NCBI GenBank assembly: GCA_965203275.1
Contig: OZ241865.1
Location: forward strand, 1,600,001-1,664,000
Source of the DNA: Bdellovibrionales bacterium
GTDB lineage: Bacteria > Bdellovibrionota > Bdellovibrionia > Bdellovibrionales > JAUICD01
Length of the DNA: 64,000 nt
Reading direction: 5' to 3'
The translations under genes and the position numbers were made by a program. Under the pieces are notes generated by a model. That model ran no database searches. It worked only from the letters and a program-made list of their open reading frames with translations, and had not been told where the DNA came from. Shown piece after piece: positions 229 to 63,026 of the stretch (position 1 is its first letter; each line of letters begins with the position of its first letter).

Positions 229-401
229 TATACTATAATTAATTTCTACTGTTGTAGATAAACTTTACTGTTAATCCTAGTATATTGTATTTAAAGCTAT
301 AGGAGTTAAACTACCAACAAAGCCCTATAGCAAAAATGTCAATTTATATAAAAGAGTTTCTTTATTGCACAAACCGCTTGCTCCTAAGGTAATAAAAACA
401 C

Positions 402-881
402 TTTTTCCTTAACATGCTACAGAGGAATGAAGAGATCCTCCCTACTCAAAGTGAACAGGCTTTCTAGGCGATGACCATTTTATCGACGTGAAGTAAACAT
501 CTTGTTTCCTTAACATGGTGTTAAGAAAAGAGGAGATCCTCCTTACTAAAAATAAACGGATTTTTGAGGCAATCAGCCTTTGATCGACGGCGATAAGCCG
601 TCGGGCTAACTGCCATTAGAAGGATATTTTCCTTAACATGGTGTTAAGAAACGAAGATATCCTCCCCTACTCAAAATGCATAATTTTTTGAGGCAATGAC
701 CATTTTGCCAATGGTGAAAGCCATTGCGGTCATTGCCCAAAAACATGCCAGAGGCATGATGCATTTTGAGTGAAAAAGACAGCTAGTTCAATTTTAGGGA
801 AACAGAGGCTGGTTTATTTTTAGTGAGACAAACGTGGTCATCGCCAGAAAGTGACCAGAGGTCAGTTCACTTTGAGTGAAA
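402..881 (+). mobile_element. Nested cluster of three family-A structured elements plus one orphan right end
   Basis: Three TTTCCTTAACATG heads; stem pairs 444-456/865-877, 545-557/812-824, 669-681/759-771. Confidence 0.8.
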
Positions 882-993
882 CAACATAGATTGTCCAAAA
901 TTCTGCCACAAAACAAAAAACCTAGTGGCACAAAATCTCTTTCGACTCATAACCTACTGCTCAACTTTATTTTTGCAGGCTATCAAACTCAGG

Positions 994-1857
994 TTAATAT
1001 CTTGGAGTGAAAAGCGTCAAAGGCTCTCCTAGTGGCTTAAATAAAACTTCATCACCAGAGAGAAAAAATGGACCTTCATCTTTTTCTATACGGCTTTGTA
1101 TGGATTTGAGATTGTCTTCATCTTTAGGATGTAATAAAAATTGTGTTTTTTGATAACGTAAGTCAAAAGATTCGTTGTGTTCTTGTTTATCAAAGAATCT
1201 CCTCCATGCCACGTGATCAATTAAGCATTTGTAAGTGACAGAATGAGAGTGATCATGTGAAGCATTATATGTAGCAATTAATTCAAAATCTCCAAAATTA
1301 GTATGAAGTTTAAGGGCGTTAGAATGCCATTGAGTAACTCCATAAAGTGATTGAATATTAGCATACCATAAACCAAAAGCCTTACTTAAAAATCCAAGAC
1401 CTTTAAAACGTTTATCCGAAGGTAAAAGACCATTGAGTGAGCAAAGATTATGGGCAACCCATTGCCCTGTATCCATAGATGGAATGACAATAAAAAGAGA
1501 TAAAGGAACCCATTTTTCATGGGAGTGTTCATTTTTATAGAGATTGTGGATTTCTTTAGGCAATTTGTCTCTTTTCATTACAAATCCAGTGATTATTCCT
1601 GGCATAATTCCACAATCATAAAAAGCCCATCGAGGCGTAGAAAGCCTTCCAAACATAATAGAATCTACTTTCATTTGCAACTCTATAAAACCTGCATTTT
1701 TTAAAAGCAAAGGATTGATCACCTTAGGCTTGCGATGAAACCAATCAAAACTTTGCTGTGAAAAATTGCCTTCAATGCTTTTATGGTTTTCCGGTCGGAT
1801 GCAAATATAAGGTAAAATATCAGGATGATCTAGCCAATCAGGCTTTAGTGTATTCAT
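994..1857 (-). CDS. Hypothetical protein
   Basis: 287-aa ORF with AAGGAG RBS; no recognised motif. Confidence 0.7.
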   Translation of the reverse strand: MNTLKPDWLDHPDILPYICIRPENHKSIEGNFSQQSFDWFHRKPKVINPLLLKNAGFIELQMKVDSIMFGRLSTPRWAFYDCGIMPGIITGFVMKRDKLPKEIHNLYKNEHSHEKWVPLSLFIVIPSMDTGQWVAHNLCSLNGLLPSDKRFKGLGFLSKAFGLWYANIQSLYGVTQWHSNALKLHTNFGDFELIATYNASHDHSHSVTYKCLIDHVAWRRFFDKQEHNESFDLRYQKTQFLLHPKDEDNLKSIQSRIEKDEGPFFLSGDEVLFKPLGEPLTLFTPRY

Positions 1858-14093: not shown

Positions 14094-14709
14094 CTGATTG
14101 CTTTTTTACAAGGGCAACTTATTCATATTGGCAAAGAATCTATCACTCTTTTAACACAAGGTGTTGGTTATGAGGTTTTTTTACCTCAACAGTCTCTTTA
14201 CTTAAAGTCGATCAACCCTACACGAGCTAAAATTAGAGGTTTCTGTTAGCTTTTGGACTCACACTATTGTAAGAGAAGATGCTTTGGCTTTGTATGGTTT
14301 TTCAACAAAGCAACAAAGGCATTTTTTTGTCTCTTTACTTAAAGTCGATCGCATTGGGCCTAAGATGGCTCTAGGCATTTTGTCATCAAATTTTTCGACA
14401 GATCAGATCATTGCTATGATTCAGTCAAAAGATATAAGAGGTTTAAGTGTTTTGCCCAAAGTAGGCAAAAAAATGGCCGAACAAATCGTCTTTAAATTAA
14501 AAGATCAACTTGTTATGTCTGAAGGGCTACAAACTGAAATAACCTCTCAGAATCAAATGATTGTTTCAACACTATTGAATTTAGGATTTAGAATTCAAGA
14601 CATAGAGAAAGCTCTTTTGCAAATGACTCAAGCAGGTTCTTTGCAAGATAAAATCAAGGCATCTCTAGCCATTTTATCAGGAAATAAAACATCCTCAGGT
14701 GGGCTTTGA
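14094..14709 (+). pseudogene. ruvA: Holliday junction branch migration protein RuvA, frameshifted
   Basis: (M)IAFLQG...GVGYEV from CTG 14094 in one frame; THTIVREDALALYGF, KVDRIGPK, PKVGKKMAEQI in another. Confidence 0.85.
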
Positions 14710-14798
14710 CCTCAGAGTTTTTAATTTCAGGCTTTTATTGGTACAAAACGGCGTTCATAATAGATTTGCTTTATAGAACACATCACATCAAGGTTCGA

Positions 14799-15610
14799 TT
14801 ATTTTCCGGCGATTCGAATAGTATGACCTGGTGAAAATCGATTTTGAGAATCATAACTCCATAATGTCAACTGAAAGACACAACCTGAGTTGACATTATA
14901 AGAGCAAGCTAATGTTGTTCCATCAAAAGTTCCGCATCCAAAGACTTGACTGGAATCTGATAAAATGACATTGCCACTGTTGTCTATGTTGACTTTGTAT
15001 AATCCACCATTTTCATCAATAGAGTTTTTTCTTTCAGACCCGCAAACAAGGGAATAGAAGCTCACTAAACGGACATCTATTTCTGTATCTTCATCTACGT
15101 TTTCTTCTTTTGGATTTTCTTCATCATCCACATCATCATTTTCAATAACTTCTATTGTGGCTTCGTTGACTGCAAGATTAATGGTGTTAAGGGTTTCATC
15201 AACGGCAAAATGGCCGAACAAATGCTAATGCGGGTATCAGCATTGTTTGTTCCAAATGAACATCCATGTAAGGATAAGTTAGCCAATGCATTATTACACT
15301 GCAAATCACTTGGACTATTGCCTTGTGCTTGAATTTGTAAGCTGCTTCCTAATGTAGAACAAAAAGGAAGATCACAACCAGTAATTTCAATACATACAGA
15401 TGGGTCTCTAAAATCTAAAGTAGCCGTACATGTCCCCCGTTGTTGTGAGAGAGTACTTTGAAAGTTATTAACAATATCACTTCCACTTTTCCCACAATTT
15501 TGAAAGGCAACAATCAATACTGAAGAAAAAACAAAAGCTAAGATTAAAACAGGTTTTTCTGATAATCTTTTGATCGTAATATACATATATATTCCTCCAT
15601 CTATCTTCAT
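14799..15610 (-). pseudogene. Cys-rich FQNC-type lipoprotein, apparently split by a frameshift (ORFs 15152-15610 and 14799-15221)
   Basis: IVAFQNCG lipobox-like motif; 70-nt ORF overlap; second ORF starts at TTG with no obvious RBS. Confidence 0.55.
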
Positions 15611-24076: not shown

Positions 24077-24551
24077 GAAAACACAAATGAATATCCATGA
24101 TGTTATTTCTATTTTACCTCATCGCTATCCTTTTTTATTGATAGATCGGGTTTTAGATCGTCAAAGACCTGATGATTTAGAAAACGGCAATTGGAAGGGT
24201 GCTAAATTATTAGCTATTAAAAACGTGACTATCAATGAACCTTTTTTTGTAGGGCATTTTCCAAATAATCCTATCATGCCTGGGGTGATGATTTTAGAGG
24301 CTATGGCTCAAGCAGCAGCTTTATTGTTAGAGCGTCCGCATCCAGAAGGGGGAAAATGGAACTTTTTCTTAGGTGGAGTGCAAAAGGCTAGATTTTATAA
24401 ACCTGTGCTTCCTGGAGATACACTGCATCTTCATGTAGAATTACTCAAAGCTAAGCAGAACAACACAGTTTATCTTTTTAAGTGTTGTGTTGTTGTTGAT
24501 GATATTAAGAAGGCAGAAGCAACCATGACAGCCCAGATTTTGTTTCACTAA
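24075..24551 (+). CDS. fabZ: 3-hydroxyacyl-ACP dehydratase
   Basis: [31 protein letters not shown]. Confidence 0.95.
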
Positions 24552-24622
24552 AAGAGGCCAGTTTATCTTGAGTGAACCAGAGGCTAGTTCAATTTTAGGG
24601 AAATAGGCCACTTTTAGTGAAA
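24543..24622. repeat. Stack of family-A right ends overlapping the fabZ stop codon
   Basis: AGAGGCCAGTTTATCTTGAGTGAA, CCAGAGGCTAGTTCAATTTTAGGGAAA, GGCCACTTTTAGTGAAA. Confidence 0.75.
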
Positions 24623-24669
24623 AAAAAGAAGCTTAGCTGTTTGTAAAAAAGCTTTACTATGCCGGTACT

Positions 24670-37225: not shown

Positions 37226-37535
37226 TGTCTCACTAAAAGTGGTCTGACCTCTGGTCACTTTCTGGTTGCCAGCCGAAGGCTATCGCCTTCTTATCTTTTT
37301 CACTAAAAATAAACCAGCCTCTGGCTGTTTTTGGGCATTGCTCTGACAGCTTACGCTGTCTAAAAAGAGCAATGCCTCAAAAATCCGTTTATTTTTAGTA
37401 GGGAGGATCCCTTCGTTTCTTAACACCATGTTAAGGAAAAAGTTCCTTCATCACTTGCTGGCAACCTAGAAAGCTTGACCACTTTTAGTAGGGAGGATCT
37501 CCTCGTCTCTTGACTACATGTTAAGGAAAAAGTTC
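37226..37535 (-). mobile_element. Family-A element nested inside a second family-A element
   Basis: Outer stem 37232-37244/37477-37489; inner stem 37302-37314/37387-37399; two heads ending GTTAAGGAAAAAGTTC. Confidence 0.85.
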
Positions 37536-37627: not shown

Positions 37628-37965
37628 TGTCTCACTAAAAGTAAACTGGCCTCTGGCCACTTTTGAGCTGGATCTTCAATTTATTTCTTAAATTTCAAAA
37701 TCATTGCCCTGAGACCAGACTCTTTCCCATTCATATCATTAGCTTTTAAAAAACTTCATCTTATTGGGCTTTGAATTTCTGTACTTACAAATAAAAAATC
37801 TGGATGCGAATGGTAATGGACAATGACCGCAAAGGCTTTCGCCGTCGATCAAAGGCTAACTGTCCAAAAGCAACCAGAGGTTGGTTTACTTTTAGTGAAA
37901 CAGAGGTGTGGCTCATTTTGAGTGAAAATGATGGCTAGTTCAATTTTAGGGAAACAGAGGCTGGG
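37628..37965. repeat. Family-A fragments and stacked right ends
   Basis: CACTAAAAGTAAACTGGCCTCTGGCCA near 37633; CAACCAGAGGTTGGTTTACTTTTAGTGAAA and further ends from about 37870. Confidence 0.7.
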
Positions 37966-39463: not shown

Positions 39464-39540
39464 TTTAAAGCTCTTTTATGTAAGAATATTTTGCTTGTTC
39501 TTTTAAATTTTATATCCTAACCTTAAGTCAATGTGTCAAT

Positions 39541-39831
39541 ATGTTAAGAAATGAGGATATTCTCTCTACTAAAAATAAACGGATTTTTGAGGCAGTTAGC
39601 CTTTGATCGACGGCGGTAGCCGTCGGGCTAACTGACCAAAAGTAGCCAGAGGTCAGTTCACTTTGAGTGAACCAAAAGGAAATCTTTTTCCTTAACATGG
39701 TGTTAAGAGACGAGGAGATCCTCCTTACTCAAAGTGAACAGGCTTTTGAGACAATGACCATTTTGCCAATGGCGAAAGCCATTGCGGTCATTGTCCAAAA
39801 GTGACCAGAGGTCAGTTCACTTTGAGTGAAA
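39541..39831 (+). mobile_element. Two tandem family-A elements (first chimeric, second complete)
   Basis: Second: stem 39727-39739/39815-39827; first: ACTAAAAATAAAC left arm with GTTCACTTTGAGT right arm. Confidence 0.85.
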
Positions 39832-39890
39832 TAAACCTACTTTAAAAAAAAGATTTTGTAAAATAAATAATATAAAAAAGGAGGCAAAAT

Positions 39891-40508: not shown

Positions 40509-40738
40509 TTGCTAGCCGAAGGCTTTCGCCTTCTTATCTTTTTCACTAAAAGTAAACTGACCTCTGGTCACTTTTGGATAGCCAGCCCGACGGCTACCGC
40601 CGTCGATCAAAGGCTGGCTATCTCAAAAGTCCGTTTACTTTTAGTAAGGAGGATCTCTTCGTCTCTTTACACGATGTTAAGGAAAAAATTCTTTCATCAA
40701 TGCTGGCAACCTAGAAAGCTTGACCACTTTTAGTGAAA
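40509..40738 (-). mobile_element. Complete family-A element nested in a partial outer element
   Basis: Inner stem 40545-40557/40633-40645; outer flanks nearly identical to those at 37265-37489. Confidence 0.85.
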
Positions 40739-40744
40739 GTCAAA

Positions 40745-40793
40745 TACGTACGGGTAGATGAAAATAAACGAAATTAGATAATAAAAGGCCCGA
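40745..40793 (+). repeat. Family-C bipartite repeat, copy 1
   Basis: TACGTACGGGTAGA-N9-ACGAAATTAGATAATAAAAGGCCCGA. Confidence 0.8.
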
Positions 40794-40991
40794 GAAGAAA
40801 GGATTGAAAATAATACATACAACAAAAAGTATATATATAGGATATTATGTAATGGGCTTCTGACCGATCTCCTCAAAATTGACCTTTCAACTCTCTGAAA
40901 AGTTCTTGATTTGGTGAATGTACGAGATTAGAGAAGAAAATTCAAGGAGGGGAAATTTTGAGGGGGACAATGCACGTATCTCTGAAAAAAG

Positions 40992-41040
40992 TACGTACGG
41001 GTAGACGGACATCGACGAAATTAGATAATAAAAGGCCCGA
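40992..41040 (+). repeat. Family-C bipartite repeat, copy 2
   Basis: Same two boxes with a different 9-nt spacer. Confidence 0.8.
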
Positions 41041-42388: not shown

Positions 42389-44023
42389 ATGAAAAAATAT
42401 ATTTTTATTCTATTTATAATCTTGCTTGTTTCTAGTGATTCTCTATGGGCTTGTGCTGAAAGCCTTATGCCACCAACTCCAAAGCAAAATCAAAAAGTTA
42501 TTAGGAAGTCTTTAAATCTTAAATTAACAAAGCTAGTTAATAAAGATACAGGTTTAAGATTTATTAGCAGTGTTCTATGGTGGATGTCCCTGGGACTTGC
42601 TGGACTTATAGATCCAATAGATCCAAATGAAGAGTCTTTTAGAAGAGAGGAAAAAAGAAAGGATGAATTATGGAGACTCAATAATGACTTAATGAAGTTT
42701 GTTCGTGTCGGAGGCCCTACCGAGACTGTAAAGAAATTTCTAGAGGCCGGAGCTGACGTCAATTATGAAGGCCTAAAGGACAATACTATTTTATCAGAAG
42801 CTATTTATGGAGGCCATGTTGAGATTGTAAAGCTATTGCTAGAAAACGGAGCTGAAGTTAATTATCAAAGCTACCACAATGGCAATACGCCTTTAATATT
42901 AGCTAGTCATGAAGGTAAGACCGAGATTGTAAAGTTATTGCTAGAGTTTGGAGCTTTCGTCAATCTTCAAAACAAAAAAGGCGAGACGGCTTTAATAAAT
43001 GCTAGTCGTGGTAAGACCAAGCTTATTGTAAAGCTTTTGCTAGCGGCCGGAGCTAACGTCGATCATCAAAACAAAGATAGCGAGACAGCTTTAATAATAG
43101 CAAGTCGTGAAGGTAAGACCAAGATTGTAAAGCTTTTGCTAGCGGCCAGAGCTAACGTCAATCATCAAAAAAAAGATGGCGAGACAGCTTTAATAATAGC
43201 AAGTCGTAAAGGTAAGATAGAGGTTGTAAAGCTATTGCTAGAAAAGGGTGCTAAAGTCAATCATCCAAACAAAAAAGGCGAGACGGCTTTATCAGAAGCT
43301 AGTTATGGAGGCCATGCTGAGATTGTAAAAACATTGCTAGATGCCGGAGCTGACGTCAATTATCCAGACAAATATGGCAATACAGCTTTAACAATAGCAA
43401 GTCGTAAAGATTATATTGAAATTGTAAAGCTATTGCTAGATGCCGGAGCTAACGTCGATCATCAAACTAAAAAAGGCGAGACGGCTTTAATTAAAGCAAT
43501 TAGGGAACGTTCTACAACAGGTTATATTGAGACTGTAAAGCTATTGCTAGCAGCCGGAGCTGACGTCGATCTTCGAAAGAAAGGTGGCTACCAGGATGGC
43601 TGGACGCCTTTAATGCTAGCTGTTACAGGTGCTGGTAGAGGCTTCATTGAAAATAGTGAGATGGCAAAGACATTGCTAGAGAACAAAGCTGACGTCAGTC
43701 TTTCAGTCAATGGCTATACTGCTTTAATGAGTGCTAGCTATAACGGGTTTGTTAATATTGTAAAGTTATTGCTAGATGCCGGAGCTAACGTCAATGATCA
43801 AGACAAATATGGCCGGACGGCTTTAATAATGCTGGCATCTAATTCACGTAATTATGATTATATTGTAAGGATTGCAAAGATATTGCTAGATGCCGGAGCT
43901 GACGTCAATCATCGAAACAACGAAGGGTATACGGTTTTACGGTATCTTATGGAGAAGGAATATTTCTATGAAGATAGCCCTGCTGTATTGTTCTTGCGAA
44001 AGAACGGAGCTCAATATTTTTAG
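42389..44023 (+). CDS. Secreted ankyrin repeat protein with highly similar 99-bp units
   Basis: Signal peptide; repeated G.TAL..AS..G...IVKLLL.AGA.V. Confidence 0.92.
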   Translation: MKKYIFILFIILLVSSDSLWACAESLMPPTPKQNQKVIRKSLNLKLTKLVNKDTGLRFISSVLWWMSLGLAGLIDPIDPNEESFRREEKRKDELWRLNNDLMKFVRVGGPTETVKKFLEAGADVNYEGLKDNTILSEAIYGGHVEIVKLLLENGAEVNYQSYHNGNTPLILASHEGKTEIVKLLLEFGAFVNLQNKKGETALINASRGKTKLIVKLLLAAGANVDHQNKDSETALIIASREGKTKIVKLLLAARANVNHQKKDGETALIIASRKGKIEVVKLLLEKGAKVNHPNKKGETALSEASYGGHAEIVKTLLDAGADVNYPDKYGNTALTIASRKDYIEIVKLLLDAGANVDHQTKKGETALIKAIRERSTTGYIETVKLLLAAGADVDLRKKGGYQDGWTPLMLAVTGAGRGFIENSEMAKTLLENKADVSLSVNGYTALMSASYNGFVNIVKLLLDAGANVNDQDKYGRTALIMLASNSRNYDYIVRIAKILLDAGADVNHRNNEGYTVLRYLMEKEYFYEDSPAVLFLRKNGAQYF

Positions 44024-44971: not shown

Positions 44972-44986
44972 TTTTCCTTAACATCA

Positions 44987-45043
44987 TGTTTATCCGGGAT
45001 CTGGGATCCGGGATCTGGCAGTCAGGCAAACCGGCATCTAAAG
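44987..45043 (+). repeat. Family-B GC-rich repeat
   Basis: TGTTTATCC-(GGGATC[C/T])x3...GGCAAACCGGCATCTAAA. Confidence 0.75.
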
Positions 45044-45197
45044 GAACTTTTTCCTTAACATGTAGTCAAAAAACGAAGGGATCCTCCCCTACTCAAAATG
45101 CATAATTTTTTGAGGCAATGACCATTTTGCCAATGGCGAAAGCCATTGCGGTCATTGCCCAAAAACATGCCAGAGGCATGATGCATTTTGAGTGAGA
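45044..45197 (+). mobile_element. Complete stand-alone family-A element (reference copy)
   Basis: GAAC head; stem 45091-45103/45181-45193; CAATGGC-GAAA-GCCATTG; CATGCC-AGA-GGCATG. Confidence 0.88.
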
Positions 45198-45260
45198 CAA
45201 AAGGTCTATAATTCGTCAAAGTGGTTCGTCTTTGTTTGTTTCTAAGTTAAAATTTCTTAT

Positions 45261-49341: not shown

Positions 49342-50838
49342 TTACAAAGCAATCAAAGGGAGATTATCTCCCATTTCATTAGCTTGATCCCCACGATGAT
49401 CTGTAGCTCCTAAATCTAAGCCTAACTGTCCAGTAGCATTGCTTCCCCAACATTTGACTTGACCCTTGCCCTGTGCAACATGTTCTAAAGTGACACAAGT
49501 GTGTTCTTCCCCTATAGCTATGGATCGTGTGATGAAACCTGCTCCTAAATCAATAGCTGACAAAGCTACTACACTTTCATCACTTTGATCTCCCCAATAA
49601 TTTGTATGACCTAGTCCAAGTTGACCTTGATTGTTTTTACCCCAACACTTTAAAATATGATTATCTAAAGCAACGCAGGCATGGTAAGGCCCTGCTGCTA
49701 ATTTTTTTACACTTCTTCCCTCACCTAATGGAATGGCTAAAAGATGTTCTCCCATCTCATAAGGATCATCCCCATGATAAATTAAATTGGACTCACTTAA
49801 TAAATGATTGATACCCCAGCATTTCACTTGATCATTATCCAAAGTAGCACAAGTATAGCCGTCCCCTGCTACAACACTCTTCACTGTCCGACCCTCTCCT
49901 AAGTTCACAGCTAAAAGATGATCCCCCATTTCATCAGGACTATCTCCATAAGACCTTTTGTTGCCTAATCCTAATTGACCTAAATTGTTAATGCCCCAAC
50001 ATTTAAGATGATCATTATCTAAGATAGCACAGGTATGATTCTTACCTGCTGTAATGGCTTTAGCTAAACGATTCTGACCTAAATCAACATAAGGAAGTTG
50101 GTCCCCCATTTCATAAGGATCGTCTCCTCTTGTGTTAATATCTCCTAAACCAAGTTGACCATAATAATTATCACCCCAGCATTTGATACCACCATCATCT
50201 AAAAGAACACACGTATAATTATAGCTTGCAACAATGGCCCTAGCTATCCGTCCCTCCCCTAAATCTACAGTTGAGAGATGATCTCCCATTTCCTCTTCGA
50301 TTTCATCATCAGTACTTAGGTCATCGCTCTCATCCCCTCGATGCTCCACGTCTCCTAAACCTAATTGACCAAAATCATTACCTCCCCAACATTTCACATT
50401 ATATGTATCTAAAATAGCACAGGTATGCTTTTGCCCTGCTGCAATAGCTCTAGCAGTGCGGCCTAAGCCTAAATCTACAAATTCTAAAGGTGGGTCATTA
50501 CGAGGTTCTATATCCCCTAAGCCTAACTGACCAAAATCATTATCTCCCCAACACTTTACCTGACCATTGCCTAAAATAACACAGGTATGATTTAAGCCTA
50601 CAGCTATCATCCTTGCAGCATCAGGATTGCTTACATCAATGCCTTCATCTTGTTGCGGTTGCAGGAAGGTTTTTGCAGTAGAAGTGCTATGAATCCTTTG
50701 CTTTTTTACCTTTCCATCATCAATTGTATGTACTAAGTCAGGTCGCTTTGTTTCACAGTTTTGAAAACCAACGATTAAAAAAATCACACTAACAGATAAA
50801 ACAATAATTCTTTTTCTTTGATCTTGGTTTGATTTCAT
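49342..50838 (-). CDS. RCC1-repeat lipoprotein
   Basis: IVGFQNCE; repeated HTC.IL....VKCWG.N..GQLGLG. Confidence 0.9.
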   Translation of the reverse strand: MKSNQDQRKRIIVLSVSVIFLIVGFQNCETKRPDLVHTIDDGKVKKQRIHSTSTAKTFLQPQQDEGIDVSNPDAARMIAVGLNHTCVILGNGQVKCWGDNDFGQLGLGDIEPRNDPPLEFVDLGLGRTARAIAAGQKHTCAILDTYNVKCWGGNDFGQLGLGDVEHRGDESDDLSTDDEIEEEMGDHLSTVDLGEGRIARAIVASYNYTCVLLDDGGIKCWGDNYYGQLGLGDINTRGDDPYEMGDQLPYVDLGQNRLAKAITAGKNHTCAILDNDHLKCWGINNLGQLGLGNKRSYGDSPDEMGDHLLAVNLGEGRTVKSVVAGDGYTCATLDNDQVKCWGINHLLSESNLIYHGDDPYEMGEHLLAIPLGEGRSVKKLAAGPYHACVALDNHILKCWGKNNQGQLGLGHTNYWGDQSDESVVALSAIDLGAGFITRSIAIGEEHTCVTLEHVAQGKGQVKCWGSNATGQLGLDLGATDHRGDQANEMGDNLPLIAL

Positions 50839-51804: not shown

Positions 51805-51851
51805 GGACCTATTATTGTCTAATTTCGTTGCTTTGCATCTACCCGTACGTA
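51805..51851 (-). repeat. Family-C bipartite repeat, copy 3
   Basis: Reverse complement TACGTACGGGTAGA-TGCAAAGCA-ACGAAATTAGACAATAATAGGTCC. Confidence 0.75.
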
Positions 51852-51860
51852 CTTTATTTG

Positions 51861-52160
51861 CACTAAAAGTGAACTGTTTCCCTCAATCTATTTCACTCAA
51901 AATGGTCAAGCTTTTGAGGCGGTTAGCCTTTGATCGACGGCGGTAGCCGTCGGGCTAACTATTAGAAGGATGTTTTCCTTAACATGTAGTCAAAAAACGA
52001 AGATATCCTCTTTACTAAAAGTAAACGGACTTTTGAGGCATTGCTCTTTTTAGACAGCGTATAGCTGTCAGAGCAATGCCCAAAAGTAGCCAGAGGCTAG
52101 TTTACTTTTAGTGAAACAGAGGCATGATGCATTTTGAGTGAAATGTTAAGGAAAAAGTTC
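51861..52160 (+). mobile_element. Family-A cluster: complete inner element between outer halves, plus an inverted head
   Basis: Inner stem 52014-52026/52100-52112; extra right end starting CAGAGG at 52117. Confidence 0.85.
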
Positions 52161-52213
52161 TTTTTGATGCCGGGTTGCCAGATCCCAGATCCCAGATCCC
52201 ACCCGGATAAACA
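52161..52213 (-). repeat. Family-B GC-rich repeat
   Basis: Reverse complement TGTTTATCCGGGT-(GGGATCT)x3-GGCAACCCGGCATCAAAAA. Confidence 0.75.
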
Positions 52214-58438: not shown

Positions 58439-60466
58439 TTATTTATACTCTACTATATTTTTTTGTATTTCACCTTCAATAGACCTTAAAAGCCCTTTAA
58501 CTGCATCTAATAAATCTCGGTTAGAAATAGTACCTCCTTGCAATGTGATGGCAAGGCCTCCTAGGTAGCTTTTATCCTGAATAAATTGTCTGATAGATCT
58601 GAGATGAGGAAAATATTTTTTGAGAGAAGAAAATTGAAAAAACACATTATGAGAGATTGCATTATAGACAATGTGCAAAGGTATATCTTTGACTTCCTGC
58701 TTGCTTTTTTCTTTTGTATTTTGCATAGAGTTTTTTTGATTGCTCATCACTTGAGAGATAGAACCTTCACCAGTCACAATGTTGTGTTGATAATTCTTAG
58801 CAGACACTCCCATATCAGATAGAGATTGGACATAACGATATTTATTTCTCACTCTTTTATTTATGTAGATTAAACCATGTTTGTAAAAACTTGTTTTTTT
58901 AAAACTATCTTTTAATTGAAGTTGAACAGGCTTTCTTGACTGCGGAATAATACCTGACTCTCTAAGTGCATCTTGAATCTCTTTAATATATGAAGCTTCG
59001 TTAATACTATGATAATGTAGTTGTTCTAAAACCCTTAGATCACATTGTTGGTCGTCGTCAAATTTTCTCATATAGAGATTGTCTATTGGAGTTATAGAAA
59101 AAGGGAAATACCTAGCCCCTCGACCAATCAGCTGGGCTTCTCTCATGGTGGTTTTATTCATTTTTTTTATGCTTTCATAGCAACGTACAATATCAAATAA
59201 ATTAAGAACATCCCATCCCTCGTTGAGTTTTTCCACTGCAAAAATAGCTCTTATGACATTATTTTTATCTTCTAATGTATTAAGCAATATTTGTAGATGT
59301 TCTTTTTCTAAATCTTTATTAACAGATAAACAGTGTTTTTCTTGAAACTCTTTACGTAATCTTTTTGCTAATTGATAGTGATTGATTTGATAATTCTTGA
59401 AAAAATCAAAAGCTTTTTGAATCAAATGAATTTTGGACTTTCTTTGGATCCTTTCTATATCTTTCGGTTCTAATTCATCTATCATTTTATGAAAGTTCAT
59501 TTTATTTTCTTTAGATTGGGCGATAGTTTTTTCTGCTTTAAAGAGAATCACTGGTTTAAGATGGATGCGGTGTTCTTGAGCTATATTTTGCTTGTATTGA
59601 CTTAAAATAATAGCTTGCAGTATGCGGTCCTTTTGTTCTAAGTCTGTTTGTACAATACACACATCTTTAGAGTAGCCATCTTCATAAAAATTTTTGAGAT
59701 CATATCTATATAAAATTTTATTGCGATATTTATTGATAATATTTTCATCATTATAATTTAACGTGGCCGTAAACTCTAATAATAAATTTTCTGCATTTTG
59801 GTTGAAAATTTTTTCTATAGTGTTTTCCCATGAAGGTTTTCTCTGATCTTCAAGGTCCATTTGAGACGGGGTATGAGTGGTTTTAGTGCTGAAGTGATGG
59901 GCTTCATCAGCTAAAAGCACTATCTTTTTATTTTTAAAGTCTTGAAAGGTCAGGGCATTTTCTTTTTCTTCTTTGAGGTCAGTGTGTAACTTTTGAATAG
60001 TGGTAAAACAAATATTGATATTTTTGTCATTGACTCCCTCAAAGTTATTTACCAATGAGGTGTGAATTCTCTGATCACCTATAGAGATATCTTCTTTAAA
60101 AAGGTACTTAGAAGATGATGGATTCAAAAAGTTGCTTTTTGTTTTTTCTAAAATAGTGGTGGAGTCTACAAAAAATAAAAAATTCCTATAGCCGTTTTTA
60201 TAGAGCTTAAGAATAAGTCCAGCCATTATAAGTGTTTTTCCGCTACCTGTGGCCATATTAAAAAGCAAATGTAATGATTTGTTTTTTTGATGGCTTTCTA
60301 AATGATGGATAAAATAAGCAAAAGCTTCTTCTTGATAAGGACGTAAAGGGAAGCGAGGGTTTAGGTTATTTTTTATATAAGATGGAACGTTTATATTTAG
60401 ATGTTTGTGTTTCTTAAGTGTATCAAGTTCTTCATATAAAAACTGTTCATTCATTATTATCTCCAT
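58439..60466 (-). CDS. res: Type III restriction enzyme Res subunit, probably C-terminally truncated
   Basis: MATGSGKT, LADEAHH, EFTAT, LNEGWDV, QLIGRGAR; no nuclease motif recognised. Confidence 0.85.
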   Translation of the reverse strand: MEIIMNEQFLYEELDTLKKHKHLNINVPSYIKNNLNPRFPLRPYQEEAFAYFIHHLESHQKNKSLHLLFNMATGSGKTLIMAGLILKLYKNGYRNFLFFVDSTTILEKTKSNFLNPSSSKYLFKEDISIGDQRIHTSLVNNFEGVNDKNINICFTTIQKLHTDLKEEKENALTFQDFKNKKIVLLADEAHHFSTKTTHTPSQMDLEDQRKPSWENTIEKIFNQNAENLLLEFTATLNYNDENIINKYRNKILYRYDLKNFYEDGYSKDVCIVQTDLEQKDRILQAIILSQYKQNIAQEHRIHLKPVILFKAEKTIAQSKENKMNFHKMIDELEPKDIERIQRKSKIHLIQKAFDFFKNYQINHYQLAKRLRKEFQEKHCLSVNKDLEKEHLQILLNTLEDKNNVIRAIFAVEKLNEGWDVLNLFDIVRCYESIKKMNKTTMREAQLIGRGARYFPFSITPIDNLYMRKFDDDQQCDLRVLEQLHYHSINEASYIKEIQDALRESGIIPQSRKPVQLQLKDSFKKTSFYKHGLIYINKRVRNKYRYVQSLSDMGVSAKNYQHNIVTGEGSISQVMSNQKNSMQNTKEKSKQEVKDIPLHIVYNAISHNVFFQFSSLKKYFPHLRSIRQFIQDKSYLGGLAITLQGGTISNRDLLDAVKGLLRSIEGEIQKNIVEYK

Positions 60467-60531
60467 TTGATTTTTGTTTAATATGCTTAAGTGTGTTTGA
60501 TATCTATTGTGATTTTAACTTGAAATAATCT

Positions 60532-62523
60532 TTAGTTTTCATTATTTTCGTCATCATCGTCTTCTGTGTCATCTTGTATTTGAAAGAAGCTTTTGTTAAG
60601 TGTTTTATCTTCTTCACTGACTTGAAAGTCCTCATCTTCTATTTCTGAAAGATGAACATAAAGTTGATTTTTGTTAAGCAGTTCCATTAATAACTTTTTT
60701 TGTTCTTTTATGCCTTGCCCCTTCCCTACTTGAATAAAATCCTTTATAGCTTCTTCTGGCCTTTTATGATTGACATACCAGTTTAAAAAAGAGTTTTTAG
60801 AGATGTCTTTCCATAAACCTAAAAGTTCATCAGTAGACTTTGCGTCTTGAATTTTATCGATATAAGTTGCGTTGTACTTCATCAACTGGCAAGAAATAAA
60901 ATCACCTTTTTGGCTTTTTTTAATTGTGTGTAATACTCGTGGAATAGTGACAGTGTTGATGTAATCCATTTGTTCACAAAGAATAAACTTTCTATCCCCT
61001 TGATCTTCTAAATTAAGTTCTAAAACAGCTTCTGCTGTTGTACCAGAACCTGCAAAAAAATCCAAAATTATATCATTATGAGTTGTTGTGATTCGAATAA
61101 TATCTTTTATTAAATGTTTTGATTTTGGATAGCTGAAAATATTATTTTTATTAAATATTTCTTTTAAAATCTTTGTTCCATGAGATGAAGCATCGTAACG
61201 TGAATCCATCCAGATTGTCTTGGGCCTCTGACCTTCTTTTATTCTATCTTTTAATTGAACAATAAAATTATGAGATTTGTTTTTTTTAATTTTGATTTCA
61301 TTGTTTTTAACAGCTTCTTTAAACCTTTCCTGTGATTGTCGCCAGACCCTTTTATTTCCATCTGAATCTAATGGAATAATTTCTGTTGCTCCTTTGCTTT
61401 TTTTCAAACTAATATCACCTGTATTTTCATTATAAAAAATAGAATAAAATAAATTCGGTCGATCATCAGGTGTGGAATTTGAGCCACCCCTTCTAAAGGG
61501 AGACCACCTATAACTAGAAACTTCGTCTTTTTCCTTAAAAGAGTTTTTTTGATCTTCTGTTAAAGGTAAGGAATGTATGGAAGCTAGTTCTTTTTCTTTA
61601 GCATATACAAGAAAAAACTCAGAAGATGTAGCAAAAAACTTTGAATCACTCCTCCCACCCGGATTGGTTTGTACAGAAATAATACCAATTCTATTTTCTC
61701 TTGAAAAAATTTCATCTGCAAGGACACCAAGATATAAGAGTTCTTCATGATCTATTGCAATGACTATAATCCCATTATCAGAGAGCAGTTCCTTTGCAAT
61801 ATCTAATCTGTTTTTCATAAAAGTTAGCCAGTGGGAATGATTAAATTCATTATTATATAAAAATGTGTTAGCATCTCCTTTTGTATTAAAAGGTGGATCG
61901 ATATAAATAAGTTTTATCTTGTTGTGAAACTGACTTTTAAGTGTATGAAGTGTAGAAAGATTATTACCTTTGATTATCAAGTTTTCTGTGATGATCTCAT
62001 TGTCATCTCTTTGTATTTCTTTTACTTTTTTAGTAGCGGAAGGTGTATGTCTTTTCCAATAAGTTAAAACCTTAGGATCAAAAAATCTATTGATCTCGTC
62101 TTCTGCTAAAGTTTCATTAAAAAATATTTCTCTTTGATTTTTTGTGTCTTCTTTGGTCTGCCCTCCTTCTAAAACACAGTCTTTATAGGGCCAGACAAGT
62201 GATATATCTTTTGTTGCTTTAAAAGGTCTATCACCTAATTTGAGTCCGATTTTGTTTCTAAATCGAGTATAAGAGTTAGATAAAAAGTTTTTATCAGACA
62301 TATAATCAATAAAAGCATTGGTATTAAAAACCAAGCTATCAGATACTTTGTTGAAGAACTTAGACTTAACTTGATGATCTTGCAGTAAAAGTGCAATAAG
62401 TTGATGGTCCATTTTCCAAGCTTTATCTATAATAGCTTTTTGAAGTAAATGGTTATTTTTGTCTAATAAACGAGAATCTCTTTTGAGTAAACCTACAAGC
62501 CTATTGTGAAAATTTTGCTCCAT
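60532..62523 (-). CDS. mod: Type III RM adenine methyltransferase Mod subunit
   Basis: IYIDPPF followed by DFFAGSGTT (beta class); adjacent to res. Confidence 0.92.
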   Translation of the reverse strand: MEQNFHNRLVGLLKRDSRLLDKNNHLLQKAIIDKAWKMDHQLIALLLQDHQVKSKFFNKVSDSLVFNTNAFIDYMSDKNFLSNSYTRFRNKIGLKLGDRPFKATKDISLVWPYKDCVLEGGQTKEDTKNQREIFFNETLAEDEINRFFDPKVLTYWKRHTPSATKKVKEIQRDDNEIITENLIIKGNNLSTLHTLKSQFHNKIKLIYIDPPFNTKGDANTFLYNNEFNHSHWLTFMKNRLDIAKELLSDNGIIVIAIDHEELLYLGVLADEIFSRENRIGIISVQTNPGGRSDSKFFATSSEFFLVYAKEKELASIHSLPLTEDQKNSFKEKDEVSSYRWSPFRRGGSNSTPDDRPNLFYSIFYNENTGDISLKKSKGATEIIPLDSDGNKRVWRQSQERFKEAVKNNEIKIKKNKSHNFIVQLKDRIKEGQRPKTIWMDSRYDASSHGTKILKEIFNKNNIFSYPKSKHLIKDIIRITTTHNDIILDFFAGSGTTAEAVLELNLEDQGDRKFILCEQMDYINTVTIPRVLHTIKKSQKGDFISCQLMKYNATYIDKIQDAKSTDELLGLWKDISKNSFLNWYVNHKRPEEAIKDFIQVGKGQGIKEQKKLLMELLNKNQLYVHLSEIEDEDFQVSEEDKTLNKSFFQIQDDTEDDDDENNEN

Positions 62524-62611: not shown

Positions 62612-63026
62612 GTTCACTAAAAGTGGTCTAGCCTCTGTTTCACTCAAAATAAATCATGCCTCTGGCATGTTTTCTGGCAGTTAGCCTTTGATCGACGGCG
62701 TGAGCCAAAAGGTGTAAGAAAGAACTTTTTCCTTAACATGGTGTTAAATGAGAAATGGATCCTCATTACTAAAAGTGGTCAGGCTTTCTAGGCAATGACC
62801 ATTTTATCGACGGCGAGAGCCGTCGTGGGCATCGCTCAGGGTGTAAGAAGGAACTTTTTCCTTAACATGTGGTCAAGAGACGAGGAGATCCTTCTTCCTA
62901 AAATTGAACAAGCTTTTGAGGTAGCTAGCCTTTGATCGACGACGAAAGTCGTCGGGCTGGCTACCCAAAAGTAGCCAGAGGCTAGTTCAATTTTAGGGAA
63001 ACCGAGGCTAGACCACTTTTAGTGAG
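62612..63026 (+). mobile_element. Family-A cluster: inverted right ends followed by a nested pair
   Basis: Outer stem 62768-62780/63011-63023; inner stem 62897-62909/62985-62997; heads at 62722 and 62851. Confidence 0.85.

What the first reader, a model, noticed from the sequence alone, without database searches (positions are those of the whole stretch)
402..881. Matryoshka nesting: elements sit inside one another in last-in-first-out order
Seen: left arms occur in order 1 (444-456), 2 (545-557), 3 (669-681) and the exactly complementary right arms in order 3 (759-771), 2 (812-824), 1 (865-877); middle stem GGCGATGACC (467-476) also finds GGTCATCGCC at 836-845. The same bracket pattern occurs at 37226-37535 and 62722-63026. 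Inference: new copies insert preferentially into resident copies, building compound arrays in harmless intergenic sites.
Basis: partly seen in the sequence, partly recalled or inferred. Interest (0 to 1): 0.85.

Follow-up and report, generated by a model that had tools for sequence, protein, structure and literature searches.

The report
Nested hairpin repeats spread as mosaics
Copies of a small, very abundant hairpin-forming DNA repeat in an uncultured bacterium really do sit inside one another, but most nests are re-copied and reshuffled versions of a few founding joints, not a clean record of new copies landing one after another, and the enzyme that moves them is unknown.

Summary
The arms are exact and the nest is real: three ~150-nt hairpin units (c, e, i), plus an unmentioned orphan right arm at 786-798. 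Genome-wide (1,247 heads), matched arm pairs are nested 41 times and crossed once. But only 24 of 92 multi-arm clusters close perfectly, and this locus is one of 2 of 11 three-deep clusters closed on all levels. Insertions remove a few target bases and leave no duplication. All seven joints of this nest recur elsewhere; 232 left joints fall into 19 families. Interrupted residents have mismatched inner arms in 27 of 82 cases against 4 of 555 intact ones, so many joints were imported. One right-hand hot spot looks repeatedly hit. Best reading: a non-autonomous single-stranded-DNA element, joined at its right tail and resolved on the left by homology, so nests spread by homing. No RAYT/Y1, IS110 or reverse transcriptase was found. 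A four-helix-bundle gene co-occurs in 5 of 5 family genomes. The scan had already noted this family in other windows of this genome.

The parts
385..403 (+). Leader of outer unit 1; this left joint recurs at 12 places (2 mismatches allowed)
404..488 (+). Unit 1 (allele c), left part: invariant head 404-415, left arm 444-456, inner arm 467-476; interrupted after 488
489..504 (+). Leader of unit 2; joint c|e recurs at 21 places (2 mismatches)
505..614 (+). Unit 2 (allele e), left part: head 505-516, left arm 545-557, inner arm 568-578, apical hairpin, and a right inner arm (603-614) of another allele
615..627 (+). Leader of unit 3; joint e|i recurs at 22 places (2 mismatches)
628..780 (+). Unit 3 (allele i), complete: head 628-639, arms 669-681 and 759-771, tail 772-780
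781..803 (+).
804..832 (+). Unit 2 right part, resuming at the side-hairpin loop (hot-spot joint, 40 places at 2 mismatches): arm 812-824, tail 825-832
833..885 (+). Unit 1 right part: inner arm 836-845, side hairpin, arm 865-877, tail; 11 bases of the apical hairpin are missing at the joint
886..992 (+). Remnant of the right end of the genome's IS1634-like element (family label recalled), joined to the tail; the same joint occurs at 5 places
37226..37535 (-). Two-level nest, b around e
37634..37950 (.). Minus-strand right end followed upstream by a ~160-nt passenger found in about 25 near-full copies; then a plus-strand stack of three orphan right arms (37884-37950)
62616..63026 (.). Two reversed right ends, then a two-level plus-strand nest, b around f (62728-63023)
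39540..39834 (+). Head-to-tail pair: a recombinant unit (left e, right c) and a complete c unit
40541..40735 (-). Complete unit (allele a) with a neighbouring orphan arm
44973..45200 (+). Head, heptamer array, second head and complete unit (allele i)
51860..52155 (+). Headless resident, unit a, stacked right arm i, reversed head and heptamer array
24540..24630 (+). Stack of right-end fragments without head

Best explanation
The unit is a non-autonomous ~150-nt mobile repeat that acts as folded single-stranded DNA (top strand: head hairpin with an invariant 12-mer, then a three-way-junction hairpin, then a short A-rich tail). SHOWN: anatomy, copy number, nesting above chance, short target loss without duplication, recurrent joints, imported joints, carriage of passengers. 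INFERRED: what moves is any stretch from a head (with a variable leader) to a downstream tail. The tail end is joined first at a nick in the target, often in the side-hairpin loop of a resident copy. The donor is then copied towards its head, and the left joint is closed by whatever homology is at hand: a few bases near the nick (new site, small deletion), the shared head (replacement, leaving orphan right arms), or resident sequence that the donor carried along (an old joint homes into a new resident). Nests therefore start from a few founder insertions plus one true hot spot, and spread and reshuffle by copying and ectopic conversion among >1,000 copies. The nicking factor is unidentified; a trans-acting single-strand nickase of REP/RAYT-like logic is assumed.
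For: 1,247 heads against 16 in the reversed genome; 535 of 581 complete units have exactly complementary outer arms across 9 common alleles. Apical loops are cGNNAg in 489 of the units scored, 178 of them with a pyrimidine at loop position 3; this is the extra-stable DNA mini-hairpin GCGNNAGC, whereas RNA favours GNRA (PMC13037366, abstract start and passages). Net loss of resident bases in 74 of 80 nested cases and in 21 of 23 clusters with a paralogous empty site, with no flanking duplication seen by eye. 232 left joints in 19 families, 11 of which hold 224. Foreign inner arm in 27 of 82 interrupted residents against 4 of 555 intact units. Excess of right arms (1,246) over left arms (979). 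Passengers between heads and tails: heptamer arrays, four-helix-bundle gene, 160-nt piece, IS end. 46 of 88 tandem duplications contain element parts. The same side-loop joint occurs in a related genome with other alleles.
Against: No enzyme found: no Y1/RAYT, IS110 or reverse transcriptase in G000, no convincing HUH motif among 2,053 ORFs. The order 'tail first, head last' is inferred; units from head to tail are equally compatible with the opposite polarity. No empty and filled alleles of one locus were seen. Collapsing joints cannot tell inheritance from repeat hits on the right side. G-T versus A-C asymmetry favouring the top strand is weak (16:7 and 13:8). Deletion sizes from exact-match ends are over-estimates.
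Confidence: 0.5

Rival explanations
1. No dedicated enzyme: the hairpins break or stall replication, and host repair (ectopic gap repair, template switching) patches the gap from any of >1,000 copies; inverted-repeat correction keeps the arms symmetrical. Nests home passively.
For: No mobilising enzyme in G000; G004 has the element but no RT, Y1 or tyrosine recombinase; deletions and short shared bases at joints; imported joints; solitary copies are few (64 of 570) and many land in other hairpin repeats.
Against: The invariant head, fixed bulges, cGNNAg loops and a defined tail are kept in three genomes whose stems differ, which needs selection by some recogniser; free allele mixing across a joint with only ~10 shared bases is hard for homology-driven repair.
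Confidence: 0.2
2. One reading: each nest is built in place by serial insertion of new copies into residents, so bracket order records time.
For: 41 nested against 1 crossed pair; 32 of 92 closed against 11.0 expected; hot spot with independent allele mixing; the largest leader family (53 joints) meets residents at several different break points; a second perfect three-level nest at G000 530,577.
Against: 60 of 92 multi-arm clusters do not close; the same leader and break point recur at dozens of loci; 27 of 82 joints carry a foreign inner arm, including unit 2 here; collapsed right joints are not enriched for element targets.
Confidence: 0.13
3. RNA intermediate: the unit is transcribed, and a reverse transcriptase copies it from the tail using a target nick as primer (SINE-like), with the four-helix-bundle protein as an Avd-like helper (Avd link recalled).
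For: Fixed 3' end with short A-rich, sometimes repeated tail; variable 5' leader; target deletions; slight excess of units co-oriented with both neighbours (134 against 96-103); four-helix-bundle gene co-occurs in 5 of 5 family genomes.
Against: No RVT_1 in G000 or G004; the three RT loci of G001 have 0, 1 and 0 heads nearby; 178 GNYA loops fit DNA better than RNA; no Rfam match.
Confidence: 0.09
4. A classical MITE moved by a DDE transposase, using weak ~11-bp terminal inverted repeats (head start and right-arm end plus tail).
For: The head's start and the tail can be read as an imperfect inverted repeat ending in CA (inspection); IS256-like and IS1634-like genes are present (labels recalled).
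Against: No target duplication, net target loss; the two IS ends do not resemble the unit's ends; head and tail variants do not covary; leaders travel with the unit.
Confidence: 0.05
5. The clusters are assembly artefacts of a repeat-rich genome.
For: No contig of four other runs spans the 402-881 cluster.
Against: Joints recur in defined families with allele logic; the same joint type exists in an independently assembled relative; repeat depth is about 100 times unique depth in run X4; the genome is one contig.
Confidence: 0.03

Closest known systems
REP / BIME / REPIN with RAYT (TnpA-REP, Y1 HUH); PMC3116915 and PMC3333891 (passages read), PMC3733652 (abstract and outline)
   Same: [quoted passage not shown]
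   Different: 150 nt with a head hairpin and three-way junction instead of 20-40-nt palindromes; no 5' GTAG or CGTC tag; polar, not a doublet; no RAYT in the genome; nesting is common and allele-traceable; insertion removes target bases.
IS200/IS605 and IS91/ISCR/Helitron single-strand and rolling-circle elements (described in PMC3333891 passages; IS91 end rules recalled)
   Same: No target duplication, strand-specific hairpins, one better-defined end, capture of neighbouring DNA.
   Different: Those insert without target loss and encode or need an HUH transposase; none was found.
Cyanobacterial small dispersed repeats and heptamer repeats
   Same: Tiny mobile repeats without known enzyme, reported to nest and to associate with heptamer arrays (recalled).
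   Different: Those are about 20-30 nt and insert precisely (recalled); this unit is five times longer, with allelic stems and deletions.
Mini-hairpin DNA of phage G4 / ssiA priming signals (PMC13037366, passages)
   Same: The apical GCGNNAGC loop on single-stranded DNA.
   Different: Only the loop motif is shared; no priming activity was tested.
Four-helix-bundle / 23S rRNA IVP genes (PF05635, TIGR02436; weak match to PDB 2gsc)
   Same: 14 copies here, 9 intact, flanked by heptamer arrays and usually by heads.
   Different: In G004 and in other families these genes occur without an adjacent three-arm unit, so they may be passengers.

Membership tests
REP/BIME/REPIN | Short (20-40 bp) palindrome with a 5' GTAG or CGTC tag | tested here: not met
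   Unit is ~150 nt; no such tag 5' of the hairpin in the consensus (definition from PMC3733652 abstract)
REP/BIME/REPIN | RAYT (Y1) transposase in the genome, flanked by the repeats | tested here: not met
   PF01797: none in G000 (90% complete) or G004; the one in G001 has no head within its 2.5-kb locus
REP/BIME/REPIN | High-copy extragenic hairpins in mosaic and tandem arrays | tested here: met
   1,247 heads, 7.3% of genome, 21 of 626 clusters in long ORFs, 46 tandem duplications
MITE (DDE) | Target-site duplication | tested here: not met
   Net loss in 74 of 80 nested and 21 of 23 paralog cases; none with a duplication by eye
MITE (DDE) | Terminal inverted repeats shared with an autonomous IS | tested here: not met
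   Only a weak imperfect repeat; ends of the two multi-copy IS differ
IS200/IS605 derivatives | Precise insertion next to a fixed tetranucleotide, no target loss; Y1 enzyme | tested here: not met
   Variable leaders and deletions; no Y1
IS91/ISCR rolling-circle | Y2 HUH transposase | tested here: inconclusive
   PF04986 found in 0 of 5 genomes, but the control rang nowhere
IS91/ISCR rolling-circle | One defined end, leaky other end, flank capture | tested here: met
   Tail conserved over ~8 nt, leader variable, passengers carried
IS110/IS1111 | DEDD recombinase gene | tested here: not met
   PF02371 none in G000; control rang in 6 of 14
Integron attC cassettes | Tyrosine recombinase available; precise recombination | tested here: not met
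   G004 carries the unit and has no PF00589 match; joints are imprecise
Retro-elements (SINE-like, group II, DGR, retron) | Reverse transcriptase | tested here: not met
   PF00078 none in G000 or G004
Ssn-associated repeats (PMC11893778, search listing only) | Small stand-alone GIY-YIG nuclease | tested here: not met
   One GIY-YIG match, in a 653-aa frame
Known structured RNA | Rfam match | tested here: not met
   None at gathering score in the window; two chance hits at E>=3
Single-stranded DNA element (any) | Nicking or strand transfer on the folded strand | not testable with these tools
   Needs biochemistry

The most novel reading that the evidence does not exclude
The unit is the substrate of an undescribed, transposase-free copy-and-paste route: a folded single strand is joined at its tail, copied by host polymerase and resolved by homology, so that compound copies home into simple ones; the small four-helix-bundle (IVP) protein, found in 14-19 copies in all three carrier genomes and in neither non-carrier of the family, is the dedicated factor. 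This would give a function to a widespread family of unknown role and explain enzyme-less repeat blooms.
Probability: 0.12. Interest if true: 0.88.

Novelty: new variant of a known kind. Interest (0 to 1): 0.5.

Why it matters
How REP-like repeats spread is still argued mostly from in vitro work. Here nine arm alleles, several inner-stem alleles and heritable leaders act as barcodes, so the history of each joint can be read from one genome. They show that nested arrays propagate by import of old joints as well as by fresh insertion, with target loss and no duplication, in genomes lacking the usual enzymes. That makes the mechanism testable by strain comparison and narrows the enzyme hunt. It also warns that bracket order in nested repeats is not a simple clock. 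The family itself was already noted by this scan elsewhere in the genome, so the added value is the junction analysis.

Tried and rejected
Enzyme searches without result: PF01797, PF02371, PF00078 in G000; PF01541 one long-frame hit (29); PF04986 uninformative control (47); PF00589 two hits in G000, none in G004 (46); HUH-motif scan of ORFs under 520 aa gave 7 hits, none resembling a transposase by eye (44); multi-copy ORF clustering showed no other linked gene (28). Head-tail covariation: none (56). Leading/lagging bias: none, 297 against 284, but GC skew is weak (44). DNA search of 41 relatives: 3 carriers, all in the family (15). Laying four runs on 17 kb (34): all are contigs, none spans the cluster; the listed joint 14489-14834 is the intact form of the unit and may come from any paralog, so it is not an empty allele. 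No RNA holder listed (27). First tokeniser missed some right arms, including the orphan here; one search replaced it; the 34 of 79 outer-match count uses the first tokeniser. Paper searches for REPIN nesting, four-helix-bundle with heptamers or mobility, bacterial self-nesting MITEs, SDR/STRR, and insertion with target deletion listed nothing describing this system; the library lacks most subscription papers and I read no supplements. dif/Xer, attC and terminal-repeat readings of the head were considered from recall and dropped.

Full report
Observation. The three outer arm pairs and the inner stem are present and exactly complementary, and the top strand of 395-890 folds into one long branched hairpin at z = -12.8. 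Parsing the cluster base by base gives: unit 1 (allele c) 404-488, leader, unit 2 (allele e) 505-614, leader, complete unit 3 (allele i) 628-780, an orphan right end of allele f (arm 786-798), the rest of unit 2 (804-832) and the rest of unit 1 (833-885). Unit 1 lacks 11 bases of its apical hairpin at the joint. Unit 2's two inner arms belong to different alleles. The other two cited loci are two-level nests.

The family. The window is G000:1,600,001-1,664,000 of a 2.57-Mb single-contig genome, 90% complete. A relative carrying the same pattern is titled Bdellovibrionales. The unit is a purine-rich variable leader, an invariant 12-nt head in the 5' arm of a weak hairpin, a ~100-nt three-way-junction hairpin and a short tail. 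There are 1,247 heads against 16 in the reversed genome and 581 complete units, 535 with exact outer arms, in nine common alleles. Element DNA is 7.3% of the genome and 26.5% of non-coding DNA. Apical loops are cGNNAg in 489 units, 311 GNRA and 178 GNYA. PMC13037366 (abstract start and passages) describes GCGNNAGC as an extra-stable DNA mini-hairpin, much less stable as RNA, with GNRA the RNA motif. This points to the top strand acting as single-stranded DNA (inference). No Rfam family matches. A strict head pattern has 476, 114, 4, 0 and 0 matches in the five genomes of the family.

Is the order last-in-first-out? Among alleles present once on each side of a cluster, 41 pairs are nested and 1 crossed. 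In 92 clusters with at least two left and two right arms, 24 close perfectly and 32 close if orphan right arms are allowed, against 11.0 expected from shuffled outer arms (maximum 26 of 5,000). So nesting is real, but 60 of 92 do not close. Of 11 clusters three deep on both sides only two close on all levels: this one and one at 530,577. Right arms outnumber left arms, 1,246 to 979.

What the joints look like. In 80 complete units with resident pieces on both sides, 74 show net loss of resident bases and 6 an overlap (sizes are inflated by exact matching). In 23 clusters with a paralogous empty site, 21 show net loss by script; by eye one of these is a clean insertion; the two negative values lie in repeat arrays; none shows a flanking duplication. 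The multi-copy four-helix-bundle gene gives the clearest cases, with losses of about 4, 29 and 50 bases, and with one left joint followed by different units in different copies.

Fresh insertion or inheritance? Raw counts favour self-targeting: 675 of 1,246 right ends run into element sequence against 23% background. But all seven joints of this cluster recur, at 5 to 40 places with two mismatches allowed. The 232 left joints fall into 19 families, 11 of which hold 224. After collapsing, 61 of 432 right types and 101 of 280 left types are element-derived, near or below background; collapsing also hides true repeat hits, so this is a lower bound. The sharpest test: intact units have matching inner arms in 551 of 555 cases, but interrupted residents that keep their right inner arm are mismatched in 27 of 82. 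Those joints came from another locus together with a piece of the old resident. On the right side the picture differs: 209 of 347 right-to-right stacks sit 26-27 nt apart at the side-hairpin loop, and at the commonest joint inner and outer alleles mix as if independent (40 combinations in 142 cases, 39.6 expected) across only ~10 shared bases. That argues for repeated events at a real hot spot, and the same joint occurs in loci L010-L041 with other alleles. The largest leader family also meets residents at several break points.

Passengers. Stretches between a head and a later tail carry heptamer arrays, reversed units (113 heads are followed directly by a reversed right end), a ~160-nt piece, an IS end and the 101-aa four-helix-bundle gene (14 matches, 9 intact; TIGR02436; weak match to PDB 2gsc). 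The intact copies show 44 synonymous against 13 amino-acid variants. The gene has 14, 19 and 19 matches in the three carrier genomes and none in the two non-carriers, but it is also multi-copy in other families where the element search found nothing, and in G004 the copies viewed are not beside the unit. Five related genomes are not independent evidence. 46 of 88 tandem duplications in G000 contain element parts.

Mechanism. Shown: anatomy, nesting, target loss, inherited and imported joints, a hot spot, passengers. Inferred: a head-to-tail stretch is joined at its tail to a nick, copied towards the head, and closed on the left by micro-homology, by the shared head (which deletes the resident's body and leaves orphan right arms such as 786-798) or by carried resident sequence (homing of old joints). 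I put this at 0.5, host repair alone at 0.2, in-place serial insertion as the main route at 0.13, an RNA route at 0.09, a DDE MITE at 0.05 and mis-assembly at 0.03. No candidate enzyme was found; G004 has the unit but no RT, Y1 or tyrosine recombinase match. Absence in a 90% complete genome, or loss of an enzyme after the bloom, cannot be excluded. Contigs of four other runs cover the flanks and show ~100-fold depth over the repeats in X4 but do not span the cluster.

Comparison. [quoted passage not shown] It fails membership on size, tag (PMC3733652 abstract) and RAYT. It fails MITE, IS200/IS605, IS110, attC and retro-element tests as listed. Seven paper searches listed no description of this system; subscription papers and supplements were not seen.

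Verdict. Real, partly as described; a new variant of enzyme-dependent or enzyme-less hairpin repeats. Interest 0.5.

Noticed in passing
window 241-259: A 19-nt sequence matching the Cas12a-type repeat handle (motif recalled) lies just after a small membrane/coiled-coil gene ending at 228; earlier notes e1-7797194 and e1-7797181 describe such solitary handles in this genome.
   Followed up: no
window 886-992: Right-end remnant of an IS1634-like element; about 65 BLAST hits genome-wide against few transposase genes, so probably its own MITE family.
   Followed up: partly
window 37656-37815: A ~160-nt passenger inserted in the unit before the side hairpin; about 25 near-full copies, including a tandem of 8 at G000 467,088-468,310; origin not found.
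   Followed up: partly
window 40725-41040 and 51805-51871: Another dispersed repeat family (93 BLAST hits) with a right end resembling the unit's tail; it is a frequent target of the unit.
   Followed up: partly
window 44990-45045 and 52160-52200; G000 genome-wide: Heptamer arrays that start at the same head as the hairpin unit (85 heads by strict pattern) and flank four-helix-bundle genes here and in other families.
   Followed up: partly
L063-L066: In other families four-helix-bundle genes stand as divergent pairs around a perfect hairpin.
   Followed up: no
L002:950-1330; L033; L035: Tandem copies in relatives include 35-50 nt of the unit's own left host flank, joined at the tail.
   Followed up: partly
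G003, G004: No tyrosine recombinase (not even Xer) detected in two 1.6-Mb genomes of the family.
   Followed up: no
window 42389-44023 and 49342-50838: A 99-nt-period repeat gene (ankyrin-like by period, label inferred) and an RCC1-repeat gene, typical of host-associated bacteria.
   Followed up: no
window 58439-62523: Type III restriction-modification mod and res genes beside an element cluster.
   Followed up: no
window 994-1857: 287-aa ORF without Pfam match, convergent on the cluster.
   Followed up: no
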